The position numbers and the translations under genes are program-made. DNA of 64,000 nucleotides, from NCBI GenBank assembly GCA_035495775.1, contig DATJFG010000186.1:13791-77790 (forward strand). The letters are read 5' to 3'. This document shows positions 32,149-58,573 of this stretch, in pieces (position 1 is the first letter of the stretch; each line of letters starts with the position of its first letter). The DNA is from Verrucomicrobiia bacterium. GTDB lineage: Bacteria > Desulfobacterota > Binatia > UBA9968. The notes beneath the pieces are model-generated. The model had not been told where the DNA came from. It did no database searches and worked only from the letters and a program-made list of their open reading frames with translations.

Positions 32149-34596
32149 ATGTTTTTTTCACGGGTGACTTTGCTGATTATTTCCGCGCTAAGCGTGATGA
32201 GCGTTCATATTGGTGTGGCCGCCGCGCAGTTTCCCGGCGGATTCATTACTAAAAGCTACGACGCGCCGAATCGACCGAGATTGACGCAGTCTCAGATCCA
32301 GAGCTTTCTGCCCGCGGGACGGGGAAAGTTCAACTTCCCGGCGCCCTACAATACCGAAGGGATCCGCATCACCATACCGACGGATTGCGGCGGCGCCGAC
32401 TGCGTGGACTACGTCGGATATTCCTATTGGAAGAACATGAACAACCATCAGAACAGCGACACGATGTACATCGTGTTGGGGTTGCATCGCGGCAGCGGCG
32501 GAGACGGCCCCACGCTGTTCGCTTACAATAAAGTTACCGATGTGGTGACCAAAGTCGGAGCGCTGTTCGATCCATCGACGAAATGGAGCTGGTCGGCGGG
32601 CAACGGCTTTTACTTCAGCGCGACGCTGCCGACCAAGCTCTACGTGAATTACTGGGGCGACTCCACGCTCTTTCGCTACGACGTTGTGGACCACAGCTTC
32701 CAACAGGTCCTCGACATCGCATCTCGGCCCGATATCTTCGGCTCGAATCGCAATATTACGCAATATCACTCGAGCGACGACGACAAGGTGCATTCGTTCA
32801 CTGTGCAGGACTCGAACTTCACGATGCTTGGCTGCGGGGTTTATCACGAGGATACCGGCAATTTTCAGTATTTTCCCAAAACCGGCGAATTTAACGAATG
32901 CAATCTCGACGCCAGCGGCCGTTGGCTCATGATTCTGGACGGCTCGGCCGATCTCGACAATTACGTCGTCGATCTACAAAACAACAACGAGAAGATCATC
33001 CTCAACCAGAACGGGCGCTTGGGCCATTTAGATATGGGCGATGGATATGCCATAGGCGATAGCGGGTCTGTGCCGCTACCCCAGGCCTCGCTTCTCTATA
33101 AATTTCCCCTCGCAACCACGACTTATCCCGTCGGGCCGACAGTCTTCTACAATGTCGATTGGTATACGAGCATCGTGAATCATGTGAGCCATCAGAACCG
33201 CAGGGTTGGCGTCGCGCCGGAGCAGCAATACGCTTGCGGTAGCAACCTGGACGGTGATCCTTCGCGTGAAAACGAGATCGCCTGCTTTCGTTTGGATACG
33301 AGCTATGACGCGTTGTTCGTCGCGCCGGTGATGACCGACATCAACGCGCCGGGCGGCGGCGACAGCTATGCCAAATATCCGAAGGGCAATATCGATATTA
33401 CCGGCCAGTATTTCTTGTGGACCAGCAACATGTACGGCAACCGCTTGGACGCGTTTATTGTCAAAGTGCCCTCGCAACTGCTAACCGGCTCTTCGCCCTC
33501 GACACCTCCGCCTTCATCAGGGCCAACGCCGCCGGTCATTAGTGGCGTATCCGCTCCTGTCGTTAGTTCGTCATCGGCGACAGTTGTCTGGACAACGAGC
33601 ACCAGCAGCGACTCGCAGGTGGAATATGGCACGACGACGGATTATGGAACCACAACCCCTTTGAACGGGAGCGCCGTCAAATCCCATCTGCAAGTTCTCG
33701 ACGCTCTCTCGGCCGGGACGATATATCACTATCGCGTTACATCGAAGGATTCGGCCGGTAATGCGGCGGTCTCCGGAGATTTCACCTTTGCCACGACCGA
33801 TTCGTCGGGCTCAGGTAGCGGAACGTCGGCCGTGTCCGTCGTCTCTCCGGCCTCGGGAGCTGCGGTCAAGGGGAAAGTAAAACTTTCGGCCAAGGCATCC
33901 GTCAGCGGCGTTATGCGACTGCAATTCCAAGTGGACGGCCGAAATGTCGGACCGGAGCGTCGTTCCGGCCGTTTTACCGTAACGTGGAATGCGGCGGCTG
34001 CGGTTCCCGGATTTCACGTTGTTACCGCAATCGCGCGTGACTCGGCAGGCAATACCAGCGTTTCGGCGCCAGTTATCGTCAGCGTCACTTCCGGCAAGGC
34101 CAGCTCCACGGGTCTGTTCACGCAGAACGTCGTATGGAGCAATGCTATCAATGTGACCGTCACGGGAAACTCAATCCAAAAAACCAGCGGTTGCGATGGC
34201 TGCGAAGACGCCGCCGCCGTGTCCTCGCAGCAATTCACAGGTAACGGTTATGTCGAATTCACCGCATCTGAAACGACGACGCAGCGCGCCATTGGTCTAA
34301 GCCGTGGGAATACGGGTACGATCCGGCAGGATATCGATTTCGCCATAATGCTATGGAATGTCAACGGCGGCGTTGTCGAAATCTATGAAAATGACATTTA
34401 CCGCGCTGGAACGGTGGGTTATACGCCCGGCGACGTCTTCCGCGTCGCCGTCGATCAGGGCATCGTCAAGTATTCGAAAAATGGCGTCGTTTTCTACACG
34501 AGCAGCAAGAAGCCAAGTTTCCCTCTGCTTGCGGATACATCGCTCTGGACTGCCGGCGCGACTCTCACAAATGCCGTAATTTCTAAGACACCCTAA
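32149..34596 (+). CDS. large secreted protein, paralogue A: unknown ~440-aa N-domain + Fn3 + Ig-like + ~170-aa C-terminal domain
   Basis: Start moved to ATG 32149 (AGGAGTG 8 nt upstream). Signal peptide ..HIGVAAA/QFPGGF. One Fn3-like module (VVSSSSATVVWTTSTSSDSQVEYGTTTDYG..YHYRVTSKDSAGN) and one Ig-like module (..VKGKVKLSAKAS..LQFQVDGRNVG..). Confidence 0.8.
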   Translation: MFFSRVTLLIISALSVMSVHIGVAAAQFPGGFITKSYDAPNRPRLTQSQIQSFLPAGRGKFNFPAPYNTEGIRITIPTDCGGADCVDYVGYSYWKNMNNHQNSDTMYIVLGLHRGSGGDGPTLFAYNKVTDVVTKVGALFDPSTKWSWSAGNGFYFSATLPTKLYVNYWGDSTLFRYDVVDHSFQQVLDIASRPDIFGSNRNITQYHSSDDDKVHSFTVQDSNFTMLGCGVYHEDTGNFQYFPKTGEFNECNLDASGRWLMILDGSADLDNYVVDLQNNNEKIILNQNGRLGHLDMGDGYAIGDSGSVPLPQASLLYKFPLATTTYPVGPTVFYNVDWYTSIVNHVSHQNRRVGVAPEQQYACGSNLDGDPSRENEIACFRLDTSYDALFVAPVMTDINAPGGGDSYAKYPKGNIDITGQYFLWTSNMYGNRLDAFIVKVPSQLLTGSSPSTPPPSSGPTPPVISGVSAPVVSSSSATVVWTTSTSSDSQVEYGTTTDYGTTTPLNGSAVKSHLQVLDALSAGTIYHYRVTSKDSAGNAAVSGDFTFATTDSSGSGSGTSAVSVVSPASGAAVKGKVKLSAKASVSGVMRLQFQVDGRNVGPERRSGRFTVTWNAAAAVPGFHVVTAIARDSAGNTSVSAPVIVSVTSGKASSTGLFTQNVVWSNAINVTVTGNSIQKTSGCDGCEDAAAVSSQQFTGNGYVEFTASETTTQRAIGLSRGNTGTIRQDIDFAIMLWNVNGGVVEIYENDIYRAGTVGYTPGDVFRVAVDQGIVKYSKNGVVFYTSSKKPSFPLLADTSLWTAGATLTNAVISKTP
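32224..33489 (+). repeat. copy 1 of a ~1.27-kb dispersed direct duplication (N-domain coding sequence)
   Basis: Collinear with 34878-36146 apart from one extra codon. Includes an 81-nt run identical in both copies (33061-33141 = 35718-35798). Confidence 0.9.
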
Positions 34597-34802
34597 ACTT
34601 CGCAGTTCCTCCTTAAATCCAAGGACATGCGGATGTCGAGGCCCAATCCCTCGACATCCGCGCCAGCGCGTCATGCCGTGCATCAGCGGCGGTTTTTCTG
34701 ATGCCTTTCCCTCAACGAATTATGTGTTTCCCCGCGGCTTATTAAGTGCATTCTGCGGCTTATTTGGCCGACATTCATGGTGCAGAGGAGTGGCTAGAAT
34801 CC

Positions 34803-37800
34803 ATGAAGTTAAACATTCGAACCCTTATCTCATTCAGTACTCTTGCCGTCAGTGCGCTCTTTGCGCTGCCGGCATCCGCGCAGTTTCCCGGCGGATTTAT
34901 TACTAAAAGCTACGACACGCCGAATCGACCGAGATTGACGCAGTCTCAGATCCAAAGCTTTCTGCCCGCGGGACGGGGAAAGTTCACCTTCCCGGCCCCT
35001 TACAACACCGAGGGTGTCCGCATCACCATACCGACGGATTGCGGCGGCGCCGACTGCGTGGACTACGTCGGATATTCCTATTGGAAGAACATGAACAACC
35101 ATCAGAACAGCGACACGATGTACATCGTGTTGGGTCTTAATCGGAGCCGCGGTGGTGCGGAGGGGCCGACGCTGTTTACCTATAACAAAATTACTGACGC
35201 TGTGACCAAAGTCGGACCGCTGTTCGATCCATCGACGAAATGGAGCTGGTCGGCGGCCAACGGCTTTTACTTCAGCGTCACTCAGCCGACCAAGCTCTAC
35301 GTGAATTACTGGGGCGACTCCACGCTCTTTCGCTACGATGTCGTGACGCACACGTTCCAGCAGATTTTCGACATCGCCTCGCGGCCGGATATCTTCGGCT
35401 CGAATCGCAACATCACCCAATATCATTCCAGCGACGACGACAAGGTGCACTCGTTCACTGTGCAGGACTCGAACTTCACGATGCTCGGCTGCGGGGTTTA
35501 TCACGAGGATACCGGAAACTTTCAGTATTTCCCGAAAGTTGGAAATTATGACGAATGCAATCTAGACGCGTCTGGGCGATGGCTCATCATACTTGAGGGC
35601 GGTCCTGACTTGGATAATCACGTTATCGACTTGCAGACGAATACCGAGACGGTAATCCTTAACCAGAACGGCCGGCTCGGTCATTTGGATATGGGTTACG
35701 GATATACCGTCGGCGACAGCGGGTCTGTGCCGCTACCCCAGGCCTCGCTTCTCTATAAATTTCCCCTCGCAACCACGACTTATCCCGTCGGGCCGACAAT
35801 CTTCTACAATGTCGACTGGTATACGAGCATCGTGAATCATGTGAGCCATCAGAACCGCAAGCCAGGCGTGGCGCCGGACCAGCAGTATGCCTGCGGCAGC
35901 AACTTAGACGACAATCCTTCGCGTGAGAACGAGATCGCCTGCTTTCGGCTTGACACGAGCTATGACGCATTGTTTGTCGCGCCGGTGATGACCGACATCA
36001 ATGCCCCGGGCGGCGGCGACAGCTATGCCAAATATCCGAAGGGCAACCTCGATATCACAGGGCAATACTTTATCTGGACCAGCAATATGTACGGCAACCG
36101 TCTCGACGCGTTTATCGTCAAGGTGCCCTCCCAATTGCTAACGGGTGCAACTACCACAACGACCACCTCCACGTCCGATACCACGCCTCCGACGATCAGC
36201 GGTGTATCCGCCCCCGTCGTCGCCTCCTCATCCGCCACCGTCACGTGGGGAACGAACGAATCCAGTGATTCACAGGTGGAATACGGCACGACTACGGCTT
36301 ACGGCAGCTCGAGCTCCGTCAACTCGACAATGGTAACCTCGCATACTCAGTCGCTTGCGGGTCTTGTGGGGAGCACGGTTTATCATTATCGTGTGAAGTC
36401 GCGCGATGCAGCGGGAAATCTTGCGACGTCTGCGGATTTTTCTTTCACGACCCCAGCGCCTACCGATACTACGCCGCCGGTCATCAGCGGGGTCTCCGCG
36501 CCATCGGTCACTTCGTCCTCAGCGAGTGTCTCATGGGTGACGAACGAGGCGAGCGACTCACAGGTGGAATACGGCACGACGACCGCGTACGGGAGCTCCA
36601 CCGCAGTCAATTCGACAATGGTCACGTCGCATTCGCAGTCGCTCAGCAGCCTAGCCGCAGGCACGGTCTATCACTATCGCGTCAAGTCGCGCGATGCGGC
36701 GGGTAATCTCGCGACGTCTGCGGATTTTTCTTTCACAACTTCAGCGGCGGGCGATACGATATCTCCGACAGTCGCCATCACTGCACCGGCGGCAGGCGCG
36801 CATGTGAAGGGAAAGATAAAGGTCGCCGCGACGGCCTCTGACAATGTGGGTATCGTCGGCGTGCAATTCCAATTGGACGGCAAGAACCTCGGGGCCGAAG
36901 ATACCACGGCTCCTTATACCACCATTTGGAACACATCCACTGCGGCGCAGGGATACCATACATTAACCGCGGTTGCGCGCGACCAAGCAGGCAACCGAAC
37001 GACATCGGCGCCCGTCACTGTTATCGTCGGCACAGTGACCGCCGACACCACGGCGCCGACGGTATCCATTTCGTCGCCCGCTGCCGGGACAACCGTCTCG
37101 GCCACGATAACTGTCACAGCGAACGCGGCGGACAATGTCGGCGTGGTCGGCGTGCAATTCAAGCTCGATGGGGTCAACCTCGGGAGCGAAGACACGGCGG
37201 CTCCATATTCGGTGTTTTGGGACACGACGACGGCTGCAAACAGTTCGCATGTCCTCACCGCGGTCGCGCGCGATGCCGCTGGCAATTCGGCCACTTCCAC
37301 AGCCGTCGCAGTGACGGTCAACAATGCCGCGGCGCCCGTGATTTCGAGCGTGTCGGCCTCGCCGATGGGTTCTTCGGGCGCTGTCATCGGTTGGAAGACC
37401 GACAAAACCTCGAACTCCCAGGTCGAGTACGGTATTACGTCCGCCTACGGCGCCTCGACGCCACTCGACGCCGGAATGACAACAGCCCATTCGGAGGCGC
37501 TCTCCGCGCTGACGGCAAACACCGTTTATCATTATCGAGTGAAATCGACCGATACCTCGGGAAATCTCGCCGTTTCCGGTGATTCCACCTTCACAACGCC
37601 CGCGTCGGTGCAGAATGTTGTCTGGACGAGCCTCATCAATACTACCGCCAGCGGCAACTCGTTGCAGAAAACTGGTGGCTGCGATGGCTGCGAAGACGCG
37701 GGCGCCGCTTCTCAGCAGCAAATCCTTTCTGGCGACGGCTATGTCGAATTCACGGCGTCTGAGAGCAATACCAACCGCACCATCGGGCTCAGCAACGGTA

Positions 37801-38087
37801 ATCCCGGAGTAACGCGCGGTGAGATCGCTTTTGGGCTGCAAATGTGGCACGTTTCATACCCCTCTAATCTAGAGGTGCGGGAGAACGGGAATTACCAAAC
37901 CGCGACGTCCTATGTGCCCGGCGATGTTTTCCGGATTGCCGTCGTATCAGGCGTCGTAAAGTATTATAAAAATGGCGTCTTGTTTTATACGAGCACGAAA
38001 GCGCCTGTTTACCCATTGCTTGTAGACACGTCGCTCTGGAGCGCCGGGGCCACGATCGCCAACGCGGTCATCTCCACCTCGCCGTAG
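34803..38087 (+). CDS. large secreted protein, paralogue B: same N-domain + 3 Fn3 + 2 Ig-like + same C-terminal domain
   Basis: Start moved to ATG 34803. Signal peptide ..LFALPASA/QFPGGF. Domain modules read from the translation. Confidence 0.8.
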   Translation: MKLNIRTLISFSTLAVSALFALPASAQFPGGFITKSYDTPNRPRLTQSQIQSFLPAGRGKFTFPAPYNTEGVRITIPTDCGGADCVDYVGYSYWKNMNNHQNSDTMYIVLGLNRSRGGAEGPTLFTYNKITDAVTKVGPLFDPSTKWSWSAANGFYFSVTQPTKLYVNYWGDSTLFRYDVVTHTFQQIFDIASRPDIFGSNRNITQYHSSDDDKVHSFTVQDSNFTMLGCGVYHEDTGNFQYFPKVGNYDECNLDASGRWLIILEGGPDLDNHVIDLQTNTETVILNQNGRLGHLDMGYGYTVGDSGSVPLPQASLLYKFPLATTTYPVGPTIFYNVDWYTSIVNHVSHQNRKPGVAPDQQYACGSNLDDNPSRENEIACFRLDTSYDALFVAPVMTDINAPGGGDSYAKYPKGNLDITGQYFIWTSNMYGNRLDAFIVKVPSQLLTGATTTTTTSTSDTTPPTISGVSAPVVASSSATVTWGTNESSDSQVEYGTTTAYGSSSSVNSTMVTSHTQSLAGLVGSTVYHYRVKSRDAAGNLATSADFSFTTPAPTDTTPPVISGVSAPSVTSSSASVSWVTNEASDSQVEYGTTTAYGSSTAVNSTMVTSHSQSLSSLAAGTVYHYRVKSRDAAGNLATSADFSFTTSAAGDTISPTVAITAPAAGAHVKGKIKVAATASDNVGIVGVQFQLDGKNLGAEDTTAPYTTIWNTSTAAQGYHTLTAVARDQAGNRTTSAPVTVIVGTVTADTTAPTVSISSPAAGTTVSATITVTANAADNVGVVGVQFKLDGVNLGSEDTAAPYSVFWDTTTAANSSHVLTAVARDAAGNSATSTAVAVTVNNAAAPVISSVSASPMGSSGAVIGWKTDKTSNSQVEYGITSAYGASTPLDAGMTTAHSEALSALTANTVYHYRVKSTDTSGNLAVSGDSTFTTPASVQNVVWTSLINTTASGNSLQKTGGCDGCEDAGAASQQQILSGDGYVEFTASESNTNRTIGLSNGNPGVTRGEIAFGLQMWHVSYPSNLEVRENGNYQTATSYVPGDVFRIAVVSGVVKYYKNGVLFYTSTKAPVYPLLVDTSLWSAGATIANAVISTSP
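34878..36146 (+). repeat. copy 2 of the ~1.27-kb duplication
   Basis: See copy 1. Runs of 30-80 identical nucleotides are separated by single substitutions. Confidence 0.9.
36177..36752 (+). repeat. two tandem 288-bp Fn3-module repeats inside paralogue B
   Basis: DTTPP(T/V)ISGVSAP..SQVEYGTTTAYGSS..VYHYRVKSRDAAGNLATSADFSFTT occurs twice, at 36177-36464 and 36465-36752. Confidence 0.9.
36753..37331 (+). repeat. two tandem ~290-bp Ig-like-module repeats inside paralogue B
   Basis: DT.(S/A)PTV.I..PAAG..V...I.V.A.A.DNVG.VGVQF.LDG.NLG.EDT.APY...W.T.TAA...H.LTAVARD.AGN occurs twice, at 36753-37043 and 37044-37331. Confidence 0.85.
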
Positions 38088-49266: not shown

Positions 49267-51507
49267 TCAATTCATCGAGTCTGTCCTTCGAATGGCGACT
49301 TCGTTCTCGTGGATCATTACGGTTTCTCCGTTGCGAATAAAACTTAGGCCCGAAGGACCAATGGGATCGCTCAAGATAGGCAAAATATCGGGAGGCTGGG
49401 CCGAGGCATCTGCAAAGGGAATGACGACGGTCATGACTCTGGATGGTAGCCTTGTATGCATCGAACAGATCAGGACCGGCGCGGGGACCCGCCGCCCATA
49501 CTCAGGAGAGTGCCAGCCTTGTATCGGCGCGACGCCTCCTCTCACAAGCTCTAAACGATAAGGCACGTTCGCAAAGTGTCGGAGCAGCAAAGCATGACCC
49601 TGATGGCCGCGCGCTCTCACCCAACGGCCATCTTCGATGTCGACTGGGAACGGAGCGAATTGAAAGCGAATATCCACGCGGTGCTCGGCCGAGCCCAGAA
49701 GATCGTCGACGACGATCCAATAGCTCTGCTTGACGAAAACGATGCGCCGCCGGTGCACCACCGGATCCAAGAGACGCGTATACGCGTAATGTTCGGCATC
49801 GGCGAAATCGTAATCGTCGGCCGATAACCACCGTCGGAGCCGCGCGCCGGGATGGTCTTTCCATTTGAAGGGTCCGGAGGAGAGCGCTTGGCTCTCGCCA
49901 TCGACGGCGACGGTGCTATGGGCGAGGCTGCCGCGGAAAAAGTCGCGCCAGGCGGGCTCAGACGTATAACAATAGGTTCCCGCGTCGACGAGGTACGGCT
50001 CGCCGAAAACCGAGCATTGAATGCTGAGAAGATCGGCATGGCCGTGGCCGCTCTTGGGCGAGCTGAGCGGCCCCGTATCGAAGATTAGCTGGTGCGCATC
50101 ACGCGCCCAGCCGCTCCGCATAACAACATAGCCGTCTGAAATGGAGCATGAGCGACCCGCCGGCGGTGTCGGTGCAATGCGCCGACAGTCTTTGTGCCGT
50201 GCCGCTCCGAGAAGCCAGAGGCTTTCCGATGCCGGCCCTTCAGCCGCCCAGGCGTAATCCGGCCGGTTGAAGAAGGCCGCGGCTACGGCAAACACGCCGC
50301 GCGCGTCGTTGCCATTCCGCCTATCGAATGGCAGCAGGCAACCGCCGTCGGCATCGCCGATATCAGGGAGCGAGCCGTCCGGACGCCTGAGGGTAACGAG
50401 GGCGTCGATCAGCCGCTCGATACGGTGCCCCACGGACTGCGGCAAAGCGATCTCGTTGCGCTTCGCCAGAATGAGAAAGTGGAGATAGATTTCCGCGGTG
50501 TAGCGCTGATAACAAATGGACTGCTCGAAGTAAACGCCGTCGGATAGAATCTGCCGGCCGCACTCGTCGATCAAGATGCGCGCGCCGAGCTCTCGCCAGC
50601 GCCGCGCGCCTTGGAGGTCGGCAAACAGCACCCCTGCATAGAAGAGTCCCAGGGCTTCTCCCGTGAGGTGGGTATTCGGCGCGAAATAATAGGAGAGGTA
50701 TTTCTCGACGCGCACTGCATGGTGCGAAACGCATTCAAGCATTCGGAGAAAAAGCTCGGGAGCGAGCGCCTCGGATCCGCGGAATAGAAACAGCGCCCAC
50801 GACCACGACACGATGCGCAGCGCCGTCTCGAGACTGCTTGTCCAGTGAATGCCGAGGCCGGGCGGGTTGGCGCGGACCCATTGCCGGAAATATTCGGCGG
50901 CACAGCGCGCGTACTTCTCCTCGCCAGTGAGTCGGTAGGCGATGCCAAGATACATCATCCACTGATGACGGCTAAGCTCCCAGACGATCTTACTGTCCCC
51001 GACCGCTGCGGCATCGAGCGGATCGATGCGGCTCCAATGCGCGAGAATACTTCGCCGTCCCGTTACGGGATCAAGCCGCCAGTCGATGGGATCGCCGAAA
51101 AAAAGTTTCTCGTACCCGAGTAGATCGAAGCGGCCGGCCAAAATCCGCTCGGCGGCGCCGATGATCCGCGCCGCCGTCTCCGGCATCTCGCCGTGTAAAA
51201 CTGTCGCCGCGCCATGTTCCGTCGCGCCTTCGAAAAAGCGGCTCGCTGCCGTCTCTTGAAACCGCTTCCACAACCGCTTCGCGATGGCGCCGAAATCGGA
51301 ATCTCCGCCCGGGAGTTTCGGGAGCGCCTCGCGCGTCAGCAGTTTGTTTAAGATGTCTTGCGGTTCGCTATGGGCGCTGCCATTCGCGCCGACGCGCTCG
51401 AGCCACTTGCTCGCTTCCTGCCGGCCGCGACAGGCGATTTCGGTCAGACTCATGGTCCTCAGGCGCTCAAGTTTTGTGGAAATCACTACGACTCCGCGCT
51501 CGACCAA
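49267..51507 (-). CDS. heparinase II/III-family protein (N-terminal alpha/alpha toroid + Hepar_II_III domain)
   Basis: GHGHADLLSIQCSVFGEPYLVDAGTYCY is the family signature. 746 aa. An alternative start at ATG 51453 (MSLTEIACRGRQE..) is plausible. Confidence 0.8.
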   Translation of the reverse strand: MVERGVVVISTKLERLRTMSLTEIACRGRQEASKWLERVGANGSAHSEPQDILNKLLTREALPKLPGGDSDFGAIAKRLWKRFQETAASRFFEGATEHGAATVLHGEMPETAARIIGAAERILAGRFDLLGYEKLFFGDPIDWRLDPVTGRRSILAHWSRIDPLDAAAVGDSKIVWELSRHQWMMYLGIAYRLTGEEKYARCAAEYFRQWVRANPPGLGIHWTSSLETALRIVSWSWALFLFRGSEALAPELFLRMLECVSHHAVRVEKYLSYYFAPNTHLTGEALGLFYAGVLFADLQGARRWRELGARILIDECGRQILSDGVYFEQSICYQRYTAEIYLHFLILAKRNEIALPQSVGHRIERLIDALVTLRRPDGSLPDIGDADGGCLLPFDRRNGNDARGVFAVAAAFFNRPDYAWAAEGPASESLWLLGAARHKDCRRIAPTPPAGRSCSISDGYVVMRSGWARDAHQLIFDTGPLSSPKSGHGHADLLSIQCSVFGEPYLVDAGTYCYTSEPAWRDFFRGSLAHSTVAVDGESQALSSGPFKWKDHPGARLRRWLSADDYDFADAEHYAYTRLLDPVVHRRRIVFVKQSYWIVVDDLLGSAEHRVDIRFQFAPFPVDIEDGRWVRARGHQGHALLLRHFANVPYRLELVRGGVAPIQGWHSPEYGRRVPAPVLICSMHTRLPSRVMTVVIPFADASAQPPDILPILSDPIGPSGLSFIRNGETVMIHENEVAIRRTDSMN

Positions 51508-51657: not shown

Positions 51658-52878
51658 TCAGGCAAGGTTCGGCTGGTATACCGCCAGCCATTGGGAACGG
51701 ACATTGCGCCACACGTGCTTTTCCAATTCCTTTCTCGCTTCGCGCGCCATGGTTGCGGCCCGCTCGGGCTCTTTCAGCAAGTGCTCCACGGCATCGGCCA
51801 TCGCTTGCGGATCGTCGGGTGAAATGATGCATCCCGTCTCGCCGTTGCGCACCATGTCGGTGATACCACCCGTTGCGGTGCTGACGATGGGTGTTCCGGT
51901 CGCGGCGGCCTCGAGAACTGACAAAGGCTGGTTGTCGACGATTGAAGAGTTGACGAAAATATCCGCTTCATCGTAAACCGCGGAAATGCGAGAAGGTTCG
52001 ACTCTCCCGAGGAAGCGAATGCTCTCGTCAGTAAATGGCGCTGCCAGCCGCCGCAGCCGCTCCGCTTCGCTGCCTGATCCGGCGATCGTCAAAGTCATGT
52101 CGGGGTAGCGCGGTTTGAGCAGCGCAAAGGCTCTGATCGTATTGTCCACCCGGTAGATCGGTTCGAGATTGCGCGTCGAGACGAGCCTGGGGTGGAGTGG
52201 CGTGCGCTCGCGAAAATGAAAGTGCGAGAGATCGACGACGTTCGGGATAACGCGTGCCTGGTATCCGTGATGCGCGAAGACTTTTCTCAGATATTCGGAG
52301 GGGACGACGAGCTCGTCCACGAGCTTCAGCCACGGATGAACGAACGATCCCCAGCGCTCCAGGTGATCCGCGGCTTCGCCGCTGTGGTAATTGAGAATCA
52401 CGCGTTTGCCGAACTTTTTCGCGGCTAGAATTGCCGGGACTGGAGCGAGGAGAAAAGACCAATACGAAGCCGAGAACACATGCACCACGTCGACGTGCTG
52501 CAGCCTATAAAGGCTCGGAACGTAGAGCGCTTCGTTGGCAATGGTTCTTAAATAACGCGCACGTCTGAGCCACTTGAGCCCTCGTGGGAATGCCGGGTTG
52601 ATCGCGATGAAATCAACCCGGCATCCCTCGCCGCGAAGCCGTTCGCACAAAAGCCGCGCCTGGACTTCTTGACCCCCGACGATATCGAGGCTGCCGGCGA
52701 CGACGGCGATACGGAAGCGGTCGGCGGAATCCAGCGTTGAATTGCTGTTTTCCGAACCCGCGCTCTCGAGCGGTTGAATCGAGTTAATGGCCAATGAGCG
52801 TAGGGCCGAGCGCGTTTGAACGCGCGAGTTACTTCGCGGAGTTAACCGGCTGAAGACGCTCCCCGATATAAAATACAT
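51658..52878 (-). CDS. GT4-family (GT-B) glycosyltransferase
   Basis: RIAVVAGSLDIVGGQEV.. N-domain and C-terminal E..PLSVLEAAATGTPIVST motif. ATG 52878 overlaps the methyltransferase gene by 50 nt, so the true start is uncertain. Confidence 0.8.
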   Translation of the reverse strand: MYFISGSVFSRLTPRSNSRVQTRSALRSLAINSIQPLESAGSENSNSTLDSADRFRIAVVAGSLDIVGGQEVQARLLCERLRGEGCRVDFIAINPAFPRGLKWLRRARYLRTIANEALYVPSLYRLQHVDVVHVFSASYWSFLLAPVPAILAAKKFGKRVILNYHSGEAADHLERWGSFVHPWLKLVDELVVPSEYLRKVFAHHGYQARVIPNVVDLSHFHFRERTPLHPRLVSTRNLEPIYRVDNTIRAFALLKPRYPDMTLTIAGSGSEAERLRRLAAPFTDESIRFLGRVEPSRISAVYDEADIFVNSSIVDNQPLSVLEAAATGTPIVSTATGGITDMVRNGETGCIISPDDPQAMADAVEHLLKEPERAATMAREARKELEKHVWRNVRSQWLAVYQPNLA

Positions 52879-53656
52879 GCGGGGCGAGCCATCGCATTTC
52901 CGGCGCGAATGCCTTTCCCAAAGTGCGATTCCACGCTTCGGAGCTCATGCCTAAGATCCAACACAGCCGATCATGGATGCGCCGACGCAGTGGAGGCGTA
53001 TGGGGCTGAGAGGCGGATAAATAGCCGTCGCAAAAACCCACGTAGCCGGAGGCGATCGTCTTAAAGCCCGCGATCTCGTGAATATGCCTGAGCTTGTCTG
53101 TGTTGTAGATGACATGCATGTCATACCTCTCCCGATCGGCAAAACGTTGCATGAGCGAGTTAAGGCCTTGCAAATTCGGCACGAGAGTAAGAATACGTCC
53201 GCCAGGGCGCAAATAATTCGCCAAGATCGCCGCGCGACGTTCGGCGTCGTCGAAATGTTCCATGACACCCCACGAATAGATAAAATCGAACCGGCGAAAA
53301 AGATCTTGGTTTTCTTGTAAATCGAAAGCGTCGCGGCAAAGGACCTCTCCGTTCGCGCCTGCGCCCGTCAGATTCGCCTGTGCGAGGCGCGCCGCAAACG
53401 GCTCAACATCAATACCGATGACCGTGCAGTTTTGCCGGCGCGCGAGATAAGCGAGCCATGGAGAACGGCCGCATCCTATTTCCAGGATTGTGGGTCTTTC
53501 GGCCCAATTCACATAGGTGTCAAACAACCTCATAATCCGTCGGTCGCACAGCCGTTTGGAATTGGGCAAGATGGGAGAGGCCCTCAGCTGATCTTCAGTC
53601 TCCGAATAATACCCGCCGCCTTCCTTCCATAGAGCGTCGCTTGCGCGTACCATCAT
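52829..53656 (-). CDS. class I SAM-dependent methyltransferase
   Basis: ILEIGCGRSPW motif I and IGIDV motif II. CAGGAGGCG RBS. Confidence 0.85.
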   Translation of the reverse strand: MMVRASDALWKEGGGYYSETEDQLRASPILPNSKRLCDRRIMRLFDTYVNWAERPTILEIGCGRSPWLAYLARRQNCTVIGIDVEPFAARLAQANLTGAGANGEVLCRDAFDLQENQDLFRRFDFIYSWGVMEHFDDAERRAAILANYLRPGGRILTLVPNLQGLNSLMQRFADRERYDMHVIYNTDKLRHIHEIAGFKTIASGYVGFCDGYLSASQPHTPPLRRRIHDRLCWILGMSSEAWNRTLGKAFAPEMRWLAPHVFYIGERLQPVNSAK

Positions 53657-53672: not shown

Positions 53673-55100
53673 TTATCGCGCCGCCTTATTTGCGGCGGAA
53701 CGATCTTGCGAATAGAGAAGTTGCGCCGGGACCTTGACTATGAATGCATCCATCCGGCTGCCGCCCAAATTGCTCGTCCAGATGAAATATCGGCCGGTGA
53801 CGTCGAGATTACCTTTCGGCGCTTTGCAATAGTCGTCGCATGGACCGGGCGCATCGGGGTTCGTCATCACCGGAGCAACTACAAGAGTGTTGTGAGATGT
53901 ATCGAGACGAAAACAGACGATCTCGTTTTCCTGTCTGCCGTGATCTAAATTGCTGCCGCAGGCATATTGCTCTTCGGCCGGCACTCCTGCTCGCCGGTTC
54001 TGGTGGCTCACGTGATTGGCGACTGCCGTATCCCAGTCGCTGTTGTAGTGCACAACTGTCCCAGGCCACTTAGTATTTGCTGGGGGGAATTTGATCACCG
54101 CCGTGGTGTTCGGCAGGCGATGATGCCCATTCGCGCCTACAGCGTAGCCGTCGCCCATATCTAAATGGCCGAGCCGCCCGGCCGTTTGTCCCGGAAGAAC
54201 GGTCTCTGTGTTATTTTGTAAATCGATAATGCGGTTGCCCAGACCGTCGACCGGGTCGCCGTCAATGATCAACAGCCATCGTCCGCCCCGGTCCAGATTA
54301 CACTCGTCATATTTTCCTTTTCGCGGAAAATAGGAGAAGCTGTTGGAGGGCTGATGATAAACGAGACATCCCATCATCTCCTTTTCTTTCGTTGCGACGT
54401 GAGTGCCGTCACTACAGCCGGCCTTTTTGCAGAGTAACGTGCCGGAATGCACCCGATCATCAGCGCTTGAATGATTTTGGGTGACTCCCTTATCGGATCC
54501 GAAGCGAGCGCGAACGTCGAAGACTATCTCAAACTTTTTAACCACAACATCGTAGCGATAGAATGTCGGGCCGCTGTCGTTAACGTAAAGTTTTGTCGGC
54601 TGCGTGGCACTGAAGTACCAGTCGGCCCCTGGATACCAACTGAACGAGCTCGTCGGATCGAATATCGGGCCTAAATTTTTCACCTCGTCGGTGACTTTAT
54701 TGTAAGTGAACAGCGTCGGTCCCGTTCCTCCTAGGCTGCGGTTGAGGCTCAAGAAGATGAGCATGGTATCGCTGCCCACATGATTGTTCATGTTCATCCA
54801 ATAAGAGTAGCCGACGTACGTCACGCAATCCTTGCCGCCGCAATCTTCAGGCACCGTGATGCGAATGCCTTCGGTATTATACGGGGAAGGAAACTTGAAT
54901 TTGCCGCGCCGCGGTGGAACGAAGGACTGGATTTGAGAAGCGGTGAGGCGTGGGCGAACGGCATGGCTCCCCGCCTTTTCGATAAAACCTCCAGGAAATG
55001 ACTGGCCACGCGACGACGTGTTCCATATGAGGAGTGTCGCAAGCACGGTCACAGCAGACAACTGCATGGCTCGAAAGCTGTTTTGGCAAAATTTTCTCAT
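53673..55100 (-). CDS. secreted protein, paralogue C: the unknown ~440-aa N-domain alone
   Basis: Start moved to ATG 55100 (MRKFCQNSFRAMQLSAVTVLATLLIW..). Mature part SFPGGFIEK..RPRLT.SQIQSF.P.RGKF.FP.PYNTEGIRIT.P.DCGG.DCV.YVGYSYW.NMNNH aligns with paralogues A and B. The track's longer ORF overlaps the upstream gene. Confidence 0.8.
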   Translation of the reverse strand: MRKFCQNSFRAMQLSAVTVLATLLIWNTSSRGQSFPGGFIEKAGSHAVRPRLTASQIQSFVPPRRGKFKFPSPYNTEGIRITVPEDCGGKDCVTYVGYSYWMNMNNHVGSDTMLIFLSLNRSLGGTGPTLFTYNKVTDEVKNLGPIFDPTSSFSWYPGADWYFSATQPTKLYVNDSGPTFYRYDVVVKKFEIVFDVRARFGSDKGVTQNHSSADDRVHSGTLLCKKAGCSDGTHVATKEKEMMGCLVYHQPSNSFSYFPRKGKYDECNLDRGGRWLLIIDGDPVDGLGNRIIDLQNNTETVLPGQTAGRLGHLDMGDGYAVGANGHHRLPNTTAVIKFPPANTKWPGTVVHYNSDWDTAVANHVSHQNRRAGVPAEEQYACGSNLDHGRQENEIVCFRLDTSHNTLVVAPVMTNPDAPGPCDDYCKAPKGNLDVTGRYFIWTSNLGGSRMDAFIVKVPAQLLYSQDRSAANKAAR

Positions 55101-55140: not shown

Positions 55141-57042
55141 TCACGAGGCGGCGCGAAGCGGCGCCGTTCGTACATCGCTGTCCGGCCAGCGCGCCGCCCG
55201 ATCGAGAAATGTCCGGCACCAGAGCTCGAAGGAGATGAGCGTCCAAAGCTCGATGTCACGCCGGCGGCCCTGCTCGTGAATGCGCAGCAGTTTTTCGATA
55301 TAGGAGGGTTCAAAGATGCCGCGTTGACTGCTCCGGCTTGAGAGCAATAGATCGCGCACAAAGCTCGCGAGGTTCCCGCGGAACCAGTCCTCCAGCGGAA
55401 CGGCGAATCCTTGTTTCGGACGATTAATGATGGTGTCCGGCAGAATGCCGCGCAGCGCACGCTTGAAAATATATTTAGTATCACCCTGTCGGAGCTTCAA
55501 CTCGGGAGGAATCGTGGCGGCGAATTCGACCAGCTTATGATCGAGCAGCGGCTCACGCGCCTCGATCGAGCAAGCCATGCTCATCCGATCGACTTTGGTC
55601 AGGATATCGAGCGGCAGATAGCTGTGGATATCGAGATATTGGACGGACGAGAGCCAATGGCCCTTGTCAGCAAAGGCACCATATCCGTTATTTTGGCATC
55701 CGAGGGTGAGGATCTCCCGAATTTCACGACGCAGAAGTGCCTGCTTGTCCTCGTTCGGAAATAACACCAGCGAATCCAGATAGCGCGCGTGACCGTCAAG
55801 CGAGTAGTGATAGATGAGATTCCGCCCCTTCATCCCCAGCGGCATGAGCGAGGCGGTCCAGGCCAGAGCTTTTCTTGCCGGCGCGGGGATGTAATGTCGC
55901 CGCTCTCGTTCTTCAACGAGATATTTTTCATATCCGGCGAATATCTCGTCGCCACCGTCCCCCGAAAGCACGACTTTAACGTGGTCGGCGGCGAGCCGCG
56001 AGACCATATACGTGGGAATGCACGAGGGATCGCCGAGCGGCTCGTCGAGATACCACGCGAGTTCGTCCATCAACGCCAATGCATCAGGTTCAAGGACGAG
56101 CTCGTGGTGTTCGGTGCCGAAGCGCTCCGCGACGATCCGGGCGTGCGCGAGCTCGTTATAGCGGACTTCTTTGAAGCCGATGGAAAAGGTCTTCACCGGC
56201 GCCGACGCAAGGCGCGTCATCATTGCGACGACCGAGCTCGAATCGATCCCACCGCTTAAAAATGCTCCGAGGGGCACGTCGCTCACGAGCCTCAATCGTA
56301 CCGATTCGAGCAAAAGCTCGCGCAGGCGCTCGACGAAGTATTCTTCGTCATGATTGTAATCGGGTTCGAAGCAGACGTCCCAATAGCGCTGGACGGTGGG
56401 ACGGCGGCCGGGTCCGGCGATCAAAATATGACCGGCCTCGAGTTTATGCACTCCCTCGATCAGGCTTTCGGTGGCGGGTGTATACTGCGAGCTCAAAAGG
56501 TAATCGAAGCTCGCCCAGTTGATCCGTCTTTCAACCTCGGGCAACCGTAAGAGAGATTTTAGCTCCGAAGCGAACGCCAGCCGTCCTCCGGCTTCGGTAT
56601 AATAGAGGGGCTTGACGCCCAAACGGTCGCGCGCCAACAGTAGAGTTTTCCGAGTCTCGTCCCATACGGCGAAGGTGAACATGCCGCGCATTTTTTCCAC
56701 GCAGCGCGGGCCGGATTCTTCATAGAGATGCGCGATGACTTCCGTATCCGTCGAGGTGTAGAACGAGTGGCCGCGGTGCTCGAGATCGTCCCTCAACTCC
56801 TTGAAGTTGTAGATCTCACCATTGAAGACGACCCAGACCGAGCCGTCTTCGTTTCGGACCGGCTGATGTCCCGTCGCTAGATCGATGATGCTCAAGCGGC
56901 GCATCCCGAGGCCGATCCCGACGGCTATATATGAGCCTTCGTCATCTGGGCCGCGGTGGACGATCGCATCACACATATGACCGATCTCCTGTCGCGCGAC
57001 GGGGTGGTCGCCGAGGCTCATGATTCCTACAATGCCGCACAT
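55141..57042 (-). CDS. asparagine synthase (glutamine-hydrolysing)-family amidotransferase, EPS-locus type (copy 2)
   Basis: MCGIVG, GHQPV, SGGIDSS PP-loop. 633 aa, collinear with copy 1. Confidence 0.9.
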   Translation of the reverse strand: MCGIVGIMSLGDHPVARQEIGHMCDAIVHRGPDDEGSYIAVGIGLGMRRLSIIDLATGHQPVRNEDGSVWVVFNGEIYNFKELRDDLEHRGHSFYTSTDTEVIAHLYEESGPRCVEKMRGMFTFAVWDETRKTLLLARDRLGVKPLYYTEAGGRLAFASELKSLLRLPEVERRINWASFDYLLSSQYTPATESLIEGVHKLEAGHILIAGPGRRPTVQRYWDVCFEPDYNHDEEYFVERLRELLLESVRLRLVSDVPLGAFLSGGIDSSSVVAMMTRLASAPVKTFSIGFKEVRYNELAHARIVAERFGTEHHELVLEPDALALMDELAWYLDEPLGDPSCIPTYMVSRLAADHVKVVLSGDGGDEIFAGYEKYLVEERERRHYIPAPARKALAWTASLMPLGMKGRNLIYHYSLDGHARYLDSLVLFPNEDKQALLRREIREILTLGCQNNGYGAFADKGHWLSSVQYLDIHSYLPLDILTKVDRMSMACSIEAREPLLDHKLVEFAATIPPELKLRQGDTKYIFKRALRGILPDTIINRPKQGFAVPLEDWFRGNLASFVRDLLLSSRSSQRGIFEPSYIEKLLRIHEQGRRRDIELWTLISFELWCRTFLDRAARWPDSDVRTAPLRAAS

Positions 57043-57067: not shown

Positions 57068-58573
57068 TTATAGCTCTTTGATCTGGTGCCCGACTTTGGT
57101 CATCCTTGTCGGAAACCGCTGCAATGAACGCCAAAGCACTTGACGTTCCTCAGCGGTCACAAGCCCAAAAATAAAACCTAATGCGACATAGATTATGCCG
57201 AAAGACATGCCTGAAAGCACAAGCGTCAGCAAAACGGGGGTCTCGAGATGCGACTTCAGCAGCATGGTGGCGGTTCCAGCAGCCACTGTCACGATGAGAT
57301 TCAATGTCAGATCTTTCCATGGCAAAAGATTGGCCAAACCGATGTGCGCTAGCCGTTTGAATCTGGCTAAAGAAAGGATCTTTGCCAAGAAGGACGCCAA
57401 AACCGTCACCATGGCGGCGCCCCACACGTTAAAAAACGAAATGAACCAATAAATGAGGGCGACGGTTAGCGCGAGTTTCAGTGCATAGACGAACAGTAGA
57501 AAGCCGGTCTCGGCATAAACCCGCAGCACGCTGTCGGTTTGCAGTACGGGAAGCAACACGGTCGTGGACCAGATCATGAAAATCGGTATGCTTCCCACAT
57601 AACTTTCGGTAAATAGAAAAACGATTAATTCGTGTGCCGTAACGAGGATCAATCCAAGCATTGGAAAAAAAACCAGTGCGAGTTTGCGGGTGGTGTCGTT
57701 CCAAACGCCGAGAACGGCGTTGCTCTGACCGTCTCTGAGCTCTTCGGCCATTCTGACCATCATCACGTTACTGACTGGACTGTGGACGAGTTCGACCAGC
57801 GGGATATTAAGACAGCCCACGGCGTAGACGGCGAAGGTCGCGGCGTCGAAATAATGGGAAACAGCATATTGGTGAAATTGTCCGCTCCAGTCCGCCAAAA
57901 GGCTCGAGCCAGCGAGCGGCAGCGCATAACTAAGTTGATCTTTGAGGGTAGTAATCTCCGGAAAAATTTCGCCCTTAAACTCACGGAAGAGATATACAAG
58001 AGTAGCCGCAAGCCTAAGGGCGGCGAAAAGAATAGCACCGAAAAGCAGCCAACGGAGTTCACCAAACAGAAGGGCGGGGATGATAAAAGCTGCACCGCGC
58101 AGCATCTCGGAAACTGCATAAGCCAAAGCCGTCGCCATGAAGCGCTTGCGTGCGGTCATGACAATTTCCAACACGGCCGAAGCGACTGAAAGTAACAGAT
58201 AGATGCCGACATAGGGGATATAAGCTGTGAGCCGAGGGTTTCCGAGCAATCCGGCGACCTCGCTCGAATACCAGCAAAGCAGCCCTAGGCCGGCGATGCC
58301 TGCCGTTGCCAATATGATCAGCGAGTTCGCCGCGTAATGGCCGGCTTTCTGTGGCGTTAGAGGCAGAAAATAGTAAAGGCTTTCTGCCATGCCGAACTGT
58401 AAAAGGTTAAATAGAGTGGCGAAAATCAGAAAGACTTGCTTATAGGTGCCGAATATCGTTTGATCGAATACTCGGACCAGCACGACCGGAATGAAGAACG
58501 TCGTGGCGAACGCCACCATTCTTCCCGCCATCAATAGCAGCGCGGGTTTAAACGTTGACTTCATAGCTCCCAC
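57068..58573 (-). CDS. MOP-superfamily oligosaccharide flippase (Wzx-like)
   Basis: About 12-14 TM helices and an N-terminal pattern typical of polysaccharide-biosynthesis (Polysacc_synt) proteins. Confidence 0.75.
   Translation of the reverse strand: MGAMKSTFKPALLLMAGRMVAFATTFFIPVVLVRVFDQTIFGTYKQVFLIFATLFNLLQFGMAESLYYFLPLTPQKAGHYAANSLIILATAGIAGLGLLCWYSSEVAGLLGNPRLTAYIPYVGIYLLLSVASAVLEIVMTARKRFMATALAYAVSEMLRGAAFIIPALLFGELRWLLFGAILFAALRLAATLVYLFREFKGEIFPEITTLKDQLSYALPLAGSSLLADWSGQFHQYAVSHYFDAATFAVYAVGCLNIPLVELVHSPVSNVMMVRMAEELRDGQSNAVLGVWNDTTRKLALVFFPMLGLILVTAHELIVFLFTESYVGSIPIFMIWSTTVLLPVLQTDSVLRVYAETGFLLFVYALKLALTVALIYWFISFFNVWGAAMVTVLASFLAKILSLARFKRLAHIGLANLLPWKDLTLNLIVTVAAGTATMLLKSHLETPVLLTLVLSGMSFGIIYVALGFIFGLVTAEERQVLWRSLQRFPTRMTKVGHQIKEL

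What the first reader, a model, noticed from the sequence alone, without database searches (positions are those of the whole stretch)
53673..55100. Third, minimal copy of the unknown N-domain embedded inside the biosynthetic operon
Paralogue C (475 aa) consists of a signal peptide and the N-domain only, with no Fn3, Ig or C-terminal modules. It keeps the same conserved blocks (SFPGGFIEK, PYNTEGIRITVPEDCGGKDCVTYVGYSYWMNMNNH, GRLGHLDMGDGY, ANHVSHQNR, ENEIVCFRLDTS, PKGNLDVTGRYFIWTSN). It lies between an AsnB-type amidotransferase gene and a methyltransferase gene. Being co-transcribed with biosynthetic enzymes suggests the domain is an autonomous functional unit of the pathway, for example periplasmic polymer modification, rather than only a surface adhesin.
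Basis: partly seen in the sequence, partly recalled or inferred. Interest (0 to 1): 0.65.

Follow-up and report, generated by a model that had tools for sequence, protein, structure and literature searches.

The report
Stand-alone secreted propeller in slime operon
This gene encodes an exported, stand-alone seven-bladed propeller protein from a large unnamed family; it holds a fixed place inside one type of sugar-acid slime (exopolysaccharide) operon and probably cuts or remodels that polymer, though no activity has been tested.

Summary
Window 53673-55100 (minus strand) encodes a 475-aa protein: a Sec signal peptide plus one ~430-aa domain, 57% identical to the N-domains of paralogues A and B. 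All quoted motifs are present.

The domain has no Pfam, NCBIfam or PDB sequence match. AlphaFold2 (pLDDT 88.8) gives a seven-bladed beta-propeller. Its best solved-structure match is PL22 oligogalacturonate lyase (TM 0.70, 9-10% identity), but the PL22 HMM does not detect it.

New here:
- Copy C belongs to a distinct "operon-embedded" subfamily, marked by a 13-residue Cys-Cys loop insertion.
- In 7 of 7 loci examined it sits in the same block: Wzx, AsnB, [methyltransferase], propeller, GT4, heparinase II/III. In three of these it overlaps the upstream gene by 4 nt.
- Three Cys pairs are kept in all 84 cellular copies and lost in the seven signal-less phage copies, which argues for export.
- Conserved residues include H312, E266 and D433 (invariant) and H363 and Q208 (91/92).
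- Relatives occur in phage structural modules, once fused to a right-handed beta-helix.

Best reading (~45%): an exported glycan-cleaving or remodelling enzyme for the locus's acidic exopolysaccharide. The family is uncharacterised, but other windows of this scan had already flagged it. Interest is moderate.

The parts
53673..55100 (-). Gene C: 475-aa stand-alone exported beta-propeller (P0001)
   Evidence: Translation. No Pfam, NCBIfam or PDB sequence hit. AF2 model pLDDT 88.8, pTM 0.87, all-beta with 28 main strands. Foldseek top hits are PL22 structures 3c5m and 3pe7.
55005..55100 (-). Signal peptide, residues 1-32; predicted cleavage SRG|QSFPGG
   Evidence: Read directly from the sequence. 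The AF2 model has an N-terminal helix 4-26 followed by a low-confidence linker. The mature start Q-(S)-FPGGF aligns with A and B directly after their AxA sites.
54393..54431 (-). C-type signature insertion, residues 224-236 (CKKAGCSDGTHVA) with the extra Cys pair C224/C229
   Evidence: Absent from A, B and the Nitrospira copies. Present in all 21 operon-embedded relatives sampled. These 21 form one side of a branch: SH-aLRT 91, or 75 with the insertion columns removed.
55141..57042 (-). Upstream neighbour: AsnB-type glutamine amidotransferase
   Evidence: Pfam Asn_synthase 1e-109 plus GATase_7. Best NCBIfam match is TIGR03108 at 648 bits, below its 816.9 cut-off.
52829..53656 (-). Downstream neighbour: class-I SAM methyltransferase
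   Evidence: Pfam Methyltransf_23/25/11.
51658..52878 (-). GT4 glycosyltransferase, conserved partner of the block
   Evidence: same position in L001, L002, L105 and the P0021 locus.
49267..51507 (-). Heparinase II/III-family protein, conserved partner of the block
   Evidence: Pfam Hepar_II_III_N and _C. Present within 10 kb of 13 of 42 family loci of at least 15 kb and in all C-type loci that reach that far.
57068..58573 (-). Wzx-type flippase, directly upstream of AsnB in all C-type loci
   Evidence: Pfam Polysacc_synt_3; synteny.
32137..34596 (+). Paralogue A (819 aa): same propeller plus Fn3/Ig-like modules and a C-terminal module
34746..38087 (+). Paralogue B (1113 aa): same propeller plus Fn3, Big_7 and a C-terminal module

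Best explanation
Gene C encodes a Sec-exported, disulfide-stabilised, single-domain seven-bladed beta-propeller. It is a fixed component of a Wzx-dependent operon for an acidic (uronic-acid or uronamide) exopolysaccharide.

Most likely mechanism: it is made together with the flippase, AsnB amidotransferase, GT4 and heparinase-II/III-like genes and acts on the polymer after export. A single asymmetric active site lies on the top face of the propeller, built from one or two conserved polar residues per blade. Candidates are R65, D86, N105/H107, Q208/H218, E266/D270, H312/D314, H363/H366 and K429/D433. The site would cleave the glycan chain (beta-elimination or hydrolysis) or otherwise remodel it, so controlling chain length, release or clearance. 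That role would parallel AlgL, PslG, BcsZ and PelA in other exopolysaccharide systems. Paralogues A and B would carry the same module tethered to Fn3, Ig and lectin-like modules for work at the cell surface or in the matrix.

Shown here: the gene, the paralogy, the fold prediction, the conserved synteny, the residue conservation, the Cys-pair pattern and the phage homologues.

Inferred: export compartment, co-transcription, location of the site, and any catalytic activity or substrate.
For: - Fold: AF2 pLDDT 88.8. The best solved-structure matches are the PL22 lyases 3c5m and 3pe7 (E 3e-12 and 2e-11, TM 0.70-0.71 on the target). Generic WD40, TolB and DPP4 propellers follow at 1e-9 to 1e-8.
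- Operon membership: the block Acetyltransf_6, deacetylase, Wzx, AsnB, [MTase], propeller, [MTase], GT4, heparinase II/III is found in the window and six other loci. A 4-nt start/stop overlap with the upstream gene occurs in three of them.
- Family-wide linkage: of 42 loci of at least 15 kb, 20 have an AsnB homologue, 19 a UDP-glucose dehydrogenase homologue and 27 some EPS-type gene within 10 kb.
- Enzyme-like conservation: 92 cellular and phage sequences share invariant R65, D86, N105, E266, H312 and D433. H363 and Q208 are kept in 91/92, H218 in 89, H107 in 88. No blade-repeat family (WD40, PD40, Kelch) is detected consistently, so the blades differ from one another, unlike multivalent lectin propellers.
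- Export: signal peptide, plus Cys pairs 87/92, 245/267 and 381/396 kept in all 84 cellular copies and lost in the 7 signal-less phage copies.
- Fusion partners are only accessory modules: LamG, Fn3, Big_7 and SLH.
- Phage use: 8 viral contigs carry relatives. L097, L098 and L104 have portal, terminase or tail-assembly genes. In L097 the propeller is fused to a right-handed beta-helix (PF13229), a fold typical of tailspike depolymerases (established knowledge).
- The polymer is probably acidic: UDP-glucose dehydrogenase and two AsnB-type amidotransferases are in the operon.
Against: - No activity has been measured for any family member.
- The PL22 HMM does not detect the family at E <= 10, and identity to PL22 structures is only 9-10%.
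- I could not superpose the model on 3PE7, so it is unknown whether the conserved His and Gln coincide with the PL22 Mn site. Only two His (H312, H363) are near-universal, which does not fit a strict 3-His + Gln site.
- 15 of 42 large loci have no EPS-type neighbour, mainly extra Nitrospira paralogues (some with lipoprotein signals) and Thermoanaerobaculia copies.
- The operon already holds a heparinase-II/III-like candidate lyase.
- Phage tail proteins can be pure receptor binders.
Confidence: 0.45

Rival explanations
1. The propeller is a non-catalytic polysaccharide-binding or scaffolding module. It would act as a periplasmic or extracellular chaperone or lectin that guides, anchors or organises the EPS. 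In phages it would serve as a receptor-binding domain.
For: - Propellers are common binding platforms, and WD40, TolB and DCAF1 fill most Foldseek hits.
- A and B look like surface or matrix proteins with Fn3, Ig and lectin-like modules.
- Phage copies sit in structural modules, where receptor binders are encoded.
- In L097 a beta-helix that could itself be the depolymerase is already present.
Against: - There are no internal blade repeats or repeated binding motif.
- The near-invariant set rich in His, Asp, Glu and Arg, different in every blade, is kept from Nitrospira to phages at 30-43% overall identity. That is more typical of a catalytic centre.
- A stand-alone soluble copy translationally coupled to biosynthetic enzymes is not what an adhesin looks like.
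Confidence: 0.22
2. The propeller is an exported enzyme that modifies the polymer without cutting it. Examples would be a C5-epimerase, an esterase/deacylase, a de-amidase or a lactonase-type enzyme that edits the uronic-acid, uronamide, acyl, carbamoyl or methyl decorations made by the neighbouring genes.
For: - The operon is unusually rich in decoration enzymes: three CelD/FemAB-like acyltransferases, a carbamoyltransferase, MBOAT plus an SGNH-like protein, a methyltransferase, a deacetylase and two AsnB.
- The gene always lies beside AsnB and a methyltransferase.
- Beta-propeller hydrolases and lactonases with metal sites are known (established knowledge).
Against: - The closest solved fold is a lyase.
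- Use by phages in tail-region genes and fusion to a beta-helix fit depolymerisation or binding better than fine decoration.
- No sequence link to any esterase or epimerase family was found.
Confidence: 0.18
3. The protein has a role unrelated to the exopolysaccharide, for example in envelope, peptide or small-molecule metabolism, and merely hitch-hikes in the locus.
For: 15 of 42 large loci lack EPS-type neighbours. Several Nitrospira paralogues are lipoproteins in unrelated contexts.
Against: - The position inside the operon is fixed in 7 of 7 C-type loci, with overlapping start and stop codons in three.
- An AsnB homologue lies within 10 kb of 20 of 42 loci. My rough estimate for a random gene is about 1-2% (not computed).
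Confidence: 0.07

Closest known systems
Polysaccharide lyase family 22, oligogalacturonate lyase (YeOGL PDB 3PE7; Vibrio VPA0088 PDB 3C5M; Pfam PF14583)
   Same: Seven-bladed beta-propeller and the best solved-structure match (E 3e-12 and 2e-11, TM 0.70-0.71 on the target). Conserved His and Gln residues lie on successive blades. The likely substrate contains uronic acid.
   Different: - 9-10% identity, and the PF14583 HMM fails at E <= 10.
- PL22 enzymes are cytoplasmic (own knowledge), whereas this protein has a signal peptide and three conserved disulfide-type Cys pairs.
- It has about 50 extra residues.
- The PL22 Mn site of 3 His + Gln with a His base (own knowledge, Abbott et al. 2010; paper not held) could not be mapped, and only H312 and H363 are near-universal here.
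- It is encoded in a biosynthetic operon, not a catabolic one.
Periplasmic processing glycanases of EPS operons (AlgL of alginate, PslG, BcsZ, PelA hydrolase domain)
   Same: An exported enzyme-like protein encoded inside the biosynthetic operon of the polymer it presumably acts on. This is a functional analogy only.
   Different: The folds are unrelated: AlgL is an alpha/alpha toroid, PslG and BcsZ are GH39 and GH8, PelA is a TIM-like fold (own knowledge). No sequence similarity. Activity is unproven here.
Phage tailspike and tail-fibre depolymerases
   Same: Relatives at 30-43% identity are encoded in phage structural modules. One is fused to a right-handed beta-helix, PF13229.
   Different: The cellular proteins are secreted and soluble or tethered to Fn3/Ig modules, not virion parts. 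The phage copies lack the signal peptide and the Cys pairs. No hit in 50,697 GenBank phage records.
XrtA/PEP-CTERM-type EPS loci (TIGR03108 amidotransferase, TIGR03087/03088 glycosyltransferases)
   Same: The neighbouring AsnB and GT4 genes find these models as their best NCBIfam matches.
   Different: All scores are below the curated cut-offs, and the 98.5%-complete genome has no exosortase (PF09721). This is a related but exosortase-less system.

Membership tests
PL22 oligogalacturonate lyase (PF14583) | Sequence match to the family profile | tested here: not met
   No PF14583 hit for C, A or B at E <= 1, for the 49 members of A2 at E <= 10, or at the three loci in a six-frame search of the genome at E <= 10. 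Profile A2 finds no PDB chain at E <= 10.
PL22 oligogalacturonate lyase (PF14583) | Seven-bladed beta-propeller fold | tested here: met
   AF2 model pLDDT 88.8 with 28 main strands, consistent with 7 blades of 4. Foldseek top three hits are 3c5m_B, 3c5m_A and 3pe7, TM 0.70-0.71 on the target. The blade count is read from the strand list and the best match, not from coordinates.
PL22 oligogalacturonate lyase (PF14583) | Mn2+ site of three His plus one Gln, with a His Bronsted base and an Arg (own knowledge of YeOGL) | tested here: inconclusive
   Conserved His and Gln exist: H312 92/92, H363 91/92, Q208 91/92, H218 89, H107 88, H366 85, H210 77. No residue-level superposition was possible, because no model coordinates are given and no PL22 sequence could be obtained.
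PL22 oligogalacturonate lyase (PF14583) | Cytoplasmic enzyme of a pectin catabolic pathway | tested here: not met
   C has a signal peptide and conserved Cys pairs and lies in a biosynthetic operon.
PL22 oligogalacturonate lyase (PF14583) | Beta-elimination of oligogalacturonates | not testable with these tools
   Needs an enzyme assay.
Repeat-type propellers (WD40, PD40/TolB, Kelch, FG-GAP, NHL) | Detectable blade repeat motif | tested here: not met
   Pfam scan of 49 members at E <= 10: Kelch_3 in 2, DUF5122 in 2, nothing consistent.
XrtA/PEP-CTERM exopolysaccharide system | Exosortase (EpsH/XrtA) in the genome | tested here: not met
   PF09721 finds nothing at E <= 0.001 in the 98.5%-complete genome.
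XrtA/PEP-CTERM exopolysaccharide system | Amidotransferase and glycosyltransferases above the curated TIGR03108 / TIGR03087 cut-offs | tested here: not met
   648 and 557 bits against a cut-off of 816.9; 227 bits against 316.65.
Operon-encoded EPS-processing enzyme (functional class, AlgL/PslG/BcsZ-like) | Encoded inside the biosynthetic operon and exported | tested here: met
   Same strand with 40-nt and 16-nt gaps. Conserved position in 7 of 7 loci. Signal peptide and Cys-pair pattern.
Operon-encoded EPS-processing enzyme (functional class, AlgL/PslG/BcsZ-like) | Cleaves the cognate polymer | not testable with these tools
   Needs biochemistry or genetics.

The most novel reading that the evidence does not exclude
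The propeller founds a new carbohydrate-active enzyme family, lyase or hydrolase, with a PL22-like scaffold but its own catalytic centre built around H312, E266, D433 and H363. The insertion-bearing C-type subfamily would be the obligatory exported processing enzyme of a widespread, exosortase-less uronate/uronamide exopolysaccharide pathway of uncultured soil bacteria (Binatia-like lineages, with related versions in Nitrospira, Acidobacteriota, Rokubacteria and NC10). Phages would have captured the same module as a depolymerase against that polymer.
Probability: 0.3. Interest if true: 0.7.

Novelty: new variant of a known kind. Interest (0 to 1): 0.5.

Why it matters
The family is large: at least 1,578 database clusters at 90% identity, 1,073 representatives at 50%, and 223 hits among species-representative genomes. 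It has no name in Pfam, NCBIfam or the PDB.

It is tied to one type of acidic exopolysaccharide locus in environmentally important, mostly uncultured groups. These include nitrite-oxidising Nitrospira, whose flocs and biofilms matter in wastewater treatment.

If it is the processing or dispersal enzyme of that polymer, it would define a new CAZy-type family, explain how these matrices are trimmed or released, and give a tool for dissolving them.

The stand-alone C-type copy is the simplest construct for biochemistry: a single domain of about 440 residues. A cultured carrier also exists, Nitrospira moscoviensis NSP M-1 (L094).

Tried and rejected
- **Residue-level comparison with PL22.** No model coordinates are exposed, so I tried to fetch a PL22 sequence for profile-profile alignment. 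PF14583 searches found no true PL22 in the window's own genome, E. coli K-12 (TolB only), 301 genomes of the window's phylum, 15 family-bearing genomes or 201 Gammaproteobacteria. The YeOGL paper is not held. The Mn-site mapping therefore stays open.\n- **Sequence searches.** Pfam, NCBIfam and PDB searches of C, of the 49-member alignment and of its profile found nothing.\n- **c-di-GMP riboswitch.** This was a lead from another window. Rfam at gathering thresholds finds only a tRNA-Sec in the window, so it is rejected for this locus.\n- **Expression evidence.** The window occurs only in soil, rhizosphere and sediment DNA metagenomes. The N. moscoviensis RNA runs are tiny and hold none of the sampled words.\n- **GenBank phages.** tblastn against INPHARED gave no hit; only IMG/VR contigs carry relatives.\n- **Literature.** Searches for the gene combination gave nothing relevant.\n- **Longer ORF.** The 603-aa reading is rejected because it overlaps asnB and exceeds the length of all homologues.\n- **Eight-blade reading.** I first considered an alternative strand register with eight blades. 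I rejected it because 28 strands partition cleanly into 7 blades of 4, with small-residue inner strands such as YACGS, YAVGA and HSGT. This is inference.
Full report
**1. Observation**

The plus-strand translation of 53673-55100 is broken by stops, so the gene is on the minus strand.

The mechanical ORF runs on to 55484 (603 aa). That extension overlaps the end of the upstream asnB gene, and homologues are 455-482 aa long, so the ATG at 55100 is the likely start. It follows GGGAG 12 nt upstream.

Residues 1-32 form a typical Sec signal: MRKF...R, then LSAVTVLATLLIW, then SRG|Q. The mature N-terminus, Q-S-FPGGF, lines up with the mature N-termini of paralogue A (32137-34596) and paralogue B (34746-38087). 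C is 57% identical to both over the whole ~430-residue domain and ends 11 residues after it.

The window's genome (4.5 Mb, 98.5% complete) holds exactly these three full copies plus one N-terminally truncated remnant on another contig.

**2. Neighbourhood**

C lies on the same strand as a run of genes from about 63.8 kb down to 38.1 kb, in this order:
- carbamoyltransferase
- two CelD/FemAB-like acyltransferases
- polysaccharide deacetylase
- Wzx-type flippase
- AsnB amidotransferase
- C
- methyltransferase
- GT4
- heparinase-II/III-family protein
- an unassigned multi-pass membrane protein
- MBOAT
- SGNH-like protein
- a second AsnB
- GT4
- UDP-glucose dehydrogenase
- a third CelD-like gene
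- GT2

The gaps around C are 40 nt and 16 nt, and the consensus scan found no excess of promoter or terminator signals. Co-transcription is therefore likely but not shown.

The AsnB and GT4 genes best match XrtA/PEP-CTERM-system models, but below their cut-offs. The genome has no exosortase. The locus is thus a relative of those systems, not a member.

**3. What the domain is**

No Pfam, NCBIfam or PDB sequence match exists for C, for 49 aligned homologues, or for their profile.

AlphaFold2 run on the 49-sequence alignment gives a confident all-beta model: pLDDT 88.8, pTM 0.87. Its 28 main strands partition into seven four-stranded blades. The conserved mature N-terminal strand (FIEK) probably closes the last blade; this is inference.

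Foldseek against the PDB ranks the PL22 oligogalacturonate lyases 3c5m and 3pe7 first (E 3e-12 and 2e-11, TM 0.70-0.71 on the target, 9-10% identity). Generic WD40, TolB and DPP4 propellers come three or more orders of magnitude behind. Against predicted viral structures the best hit is an unnamed 1,172-aa protein, A0A8E5NQ64, at E 5.5e-16.

The PL22 HMM does not see the family. This is therefore a PL22-like fold, not a PL22 member.

**4. Family and distribution**

- The word-indexed protein search (clusters at 90% identity) finds 1,578 clusters, all labelled hypothetical or named only for their accessory domains; most of the top 120 are stand-alone proteins of 455-480 aa.
- An exhaustive profile search of 1.84 billion representatives finds 1,073 at E <= 1e-3 and 373 at E <= 1e-30.
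- Among species-representative genomes, 223 stretches encode a relative.
- Carriers are mainly Nitrospira and Nitrospiraceae, often with three or more copies per genome and including the cultured N. moscoviensis. Others are Acidobacteriota, Binatia, Rokubacteria, NC10, some Gammaproteobacteria and Verrucomicrobiia.
- Fusion partners are only accessory modules: Fn3, Big_7, LamG and SLH.

**5. Linkage to the polysaccharide genes**

I ran tblastn with the window's own EPS proteins against the 80 fetched loci. Of the 42 loci of at least 15 kb:

| Homologue within 10 kb | Loci (of 42) |
|---|---|
| AsnB | 20 |
| UDP-glucose dehydrogenase | 19 |
| GT4 | 18 |
| Heparinase II/III | 13 |
| Any EPS-type gene | 27 |
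| None | 15 |

The 15 loci without EPS neighbours are mostly extra Nitrospira paralogues, several with lipoprotein signal peptides, and Thermoanaerobaculia copies. The link is strong but not universal.

**6. What is specific to copy C (new here)**

C and its closest relatives share a 13-residue insertion, C-K-K-x-G-C-x-D-G-x-H-x-A, with an extra Cys pair. It lies between the first two strands of blade 3 and is absent from A, B and the Nitrospira copies.

All 21 insertion-bearing sequences sampled are stand-alone proteins. They fall on one side of a branch with SH-aLRT 91, or 75 when the insertion columns are removed.

A well-supported clade (96) unites them with the A/B-type multidomain copies of the same lineage: winA, winB, L021 and L018. 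The next outgroups are all multidomain. The minimal architecture of C is therefore probably secondary, a truncated and relocated derivative, rather than the ancestral state in this half of the family.

Seven C-type loci were examined: the window, L001, L002 (the same contig as L019), L017, L105, L106 and the P0021 contig. In each the gene sits in the same block: deacetylase, Wzx, AsnB, [methyltransferase], propeller, [methyltransferase], GT4, heparinase II/III. For L017 the neighbouring genes are known only from homology hits, not their order, and L106 ends before GT4. In three loci the start codon overlaps the stop of the upstream gene by 4 nt, which suggests translational coupling.

C keeps 122 of the 130 columns that are at least 85% conserved; A keeps 123 and B 125. 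It shows no sign of decay.

**7. Conserved residues and export**

Across 92 cellular and phage sequences:
- Invariant polar or aromatic residues: R65, Y74, T76, T82, D86, Y98, Y100, N105, E266, H312, Y424, D433 and W441.
- Near-invariant: R49, R80, K135, D184, D195, Q208, D270, D314, H363, N368, E393, K429 and R449.
- H218, H107 and H366 are kept in 85-89 of 92.

These residues lie on the outer strands and the strand-D-to-strand-A loops of successive blades. In propellers that is the top face around the axis; this is inference from the strand list, not from coordinates. Each blade contributes different residues, which points to one asymmetric site rather than repeated lectin sites.

Three Cys pairs (87/92, 245/267, 381/396) are present in all 84 cellular sequences and in the one viral copy with a signal peptide. 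All three pairs are broken in the seven signal-less phage copies: 87/92 always lost together, the other two with one Cys left in some copies. They are therefore structural disulfides, and the cellular proteins fold in an oxidising, extracytoplasmic compartment.

**8. Phage relatives**

Earlier agents of this scan had reported phage copies; I treated that as a lead and retested it. Eight IMG/VR contigs encode relatives at 30-43% identity. L104, L097 and L098 carry terminase, portal, head-tail connector or tail-assembly genes.

In L104 the propeller gene follows a tail-assembly-like gene and precedes a LamG protein. In L097 the propeller is the C-terminal half of an 891-aa protein whose N-terminal half is a right-handed beta-helix (PF13229).

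GenBank phages have no hit.

**9. Interpretation**

The data fit best with an exported enzyme that acts on the locus's acidic exopolysaccharide, most simply by cleaving it. I put this at about 45%. The supporting points are:
- a PL22-like fold;
- a conserved His/Asp/Glu/Arg cluster;
- only accessory fusion partners;
- use by phages;
- a fixed place in the operon.

The rivals are a non-catalytic binder or scaffold (about 22%), a non-cleaving modifying enzyme (about 18%) and an EPS-unrelated role (about 7%).

Whether the catalytic centre resembles the PL22 Mn site remains open. Model coordinates are not exposed, and I could not obtain a PL22 sequence despite five genome searches.

**10. Novelty and verdict**

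'Periplasmic modification' remains a hypothesis.

The family is uncharacterised and absent from the domain databases searched. It is a new variant of a known kind: a beta-propeller acting on polysaccharide. It has already been flagged in several other windows of this scan.

What this report adds is the definition of the operon-embedded C-type subfamily, the disulfide/export covariation, a candidate list of catalytic residues and the absence of an exosortase. Interest is moderate (0.5).

Noticed in passing
G000 contig C98:3153-3725 (+); locus L010, ORF 1444-2586: A fourth, N-terminally truncated copy of the propeller. It covers only residues ~285-464 (49% identical to C) and is followed by a ~170-aa jelly-roll-like module. 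It has no signal peptide and lies outside any EPS locus, so it is probably a gene remnant.
   Followed up: partly
Loci L037 (9887-11260) and L069 (9881-11251): Some Nitrospira paralogues carry lipoprotein-type signal peptides (…LVSC GGGG…, …LLVAC GSGG…) and sit in non-EPS contexts. Nitrospira genomes hold three or more diverged copies each, so the family has expanded and partly left the EPS locus in that lineage.
   Followed up: partly
Locus L097, 8759-11434: A phage-contig protein of 891 aa with a signal-peptide-like N-terminus, a right-handed beta-helix (PF13229) and then the propeller, which keeps all three Cys pairs. It is the only viral copy that looks exported.
   Followed up: partly
Loci L098-L104: Seven phage copies start directly at the PGGF motif with no signal peptide, and all three Cys pairs are broken in them (87/92 always lost together). 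The candidate active-site residues are kept (H312, E266 and D433 in all seven; H363 in all seven; Q208 kept).
   Followed up: yes
window 5684-5774 (-): A selenocysteine tRNA (Rfam RF01852, 76.9 bits); it is the only Rfam hit in the window.
   Followed up: no
window 9766-11766 and 14444-15325 (+): A bacterial non-homologous end-joining pair: LigD (ligase plus primase-polymerase) and Ku.
   Followed up: no
whole genome G000; window 38089-63820: The EPS enzymes best match XrtA/PEP-CTERM-system models (TIGR03108, TIGR03087), but below their cut-offs. The 98.5%-complete genome has no exosortase (PF09721), so this is an exosortase-less cousin of those loci.
   Followed up: partly
window 21521-27222 (-): The EPS region extends upstream of the regulators: an NAD-dependent epimerase/dehydratase, a GlmS-like amidotransferase, an AlgX/SGNH-like protein and a GT2.
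   Followed up: no
Locus L094 (NZ_CP011801.1, about 2,455,447-2,456,895): The cultured Nitrospira moscoviensis NSP M-1 carries a stand-alone homologue (52% identical) next to homologues of GT4, UDP-glucose dehydrogenase, GT2, carbamoyltransferase and methyltransferase. It offers an experimental handle.
   Followed up: partly
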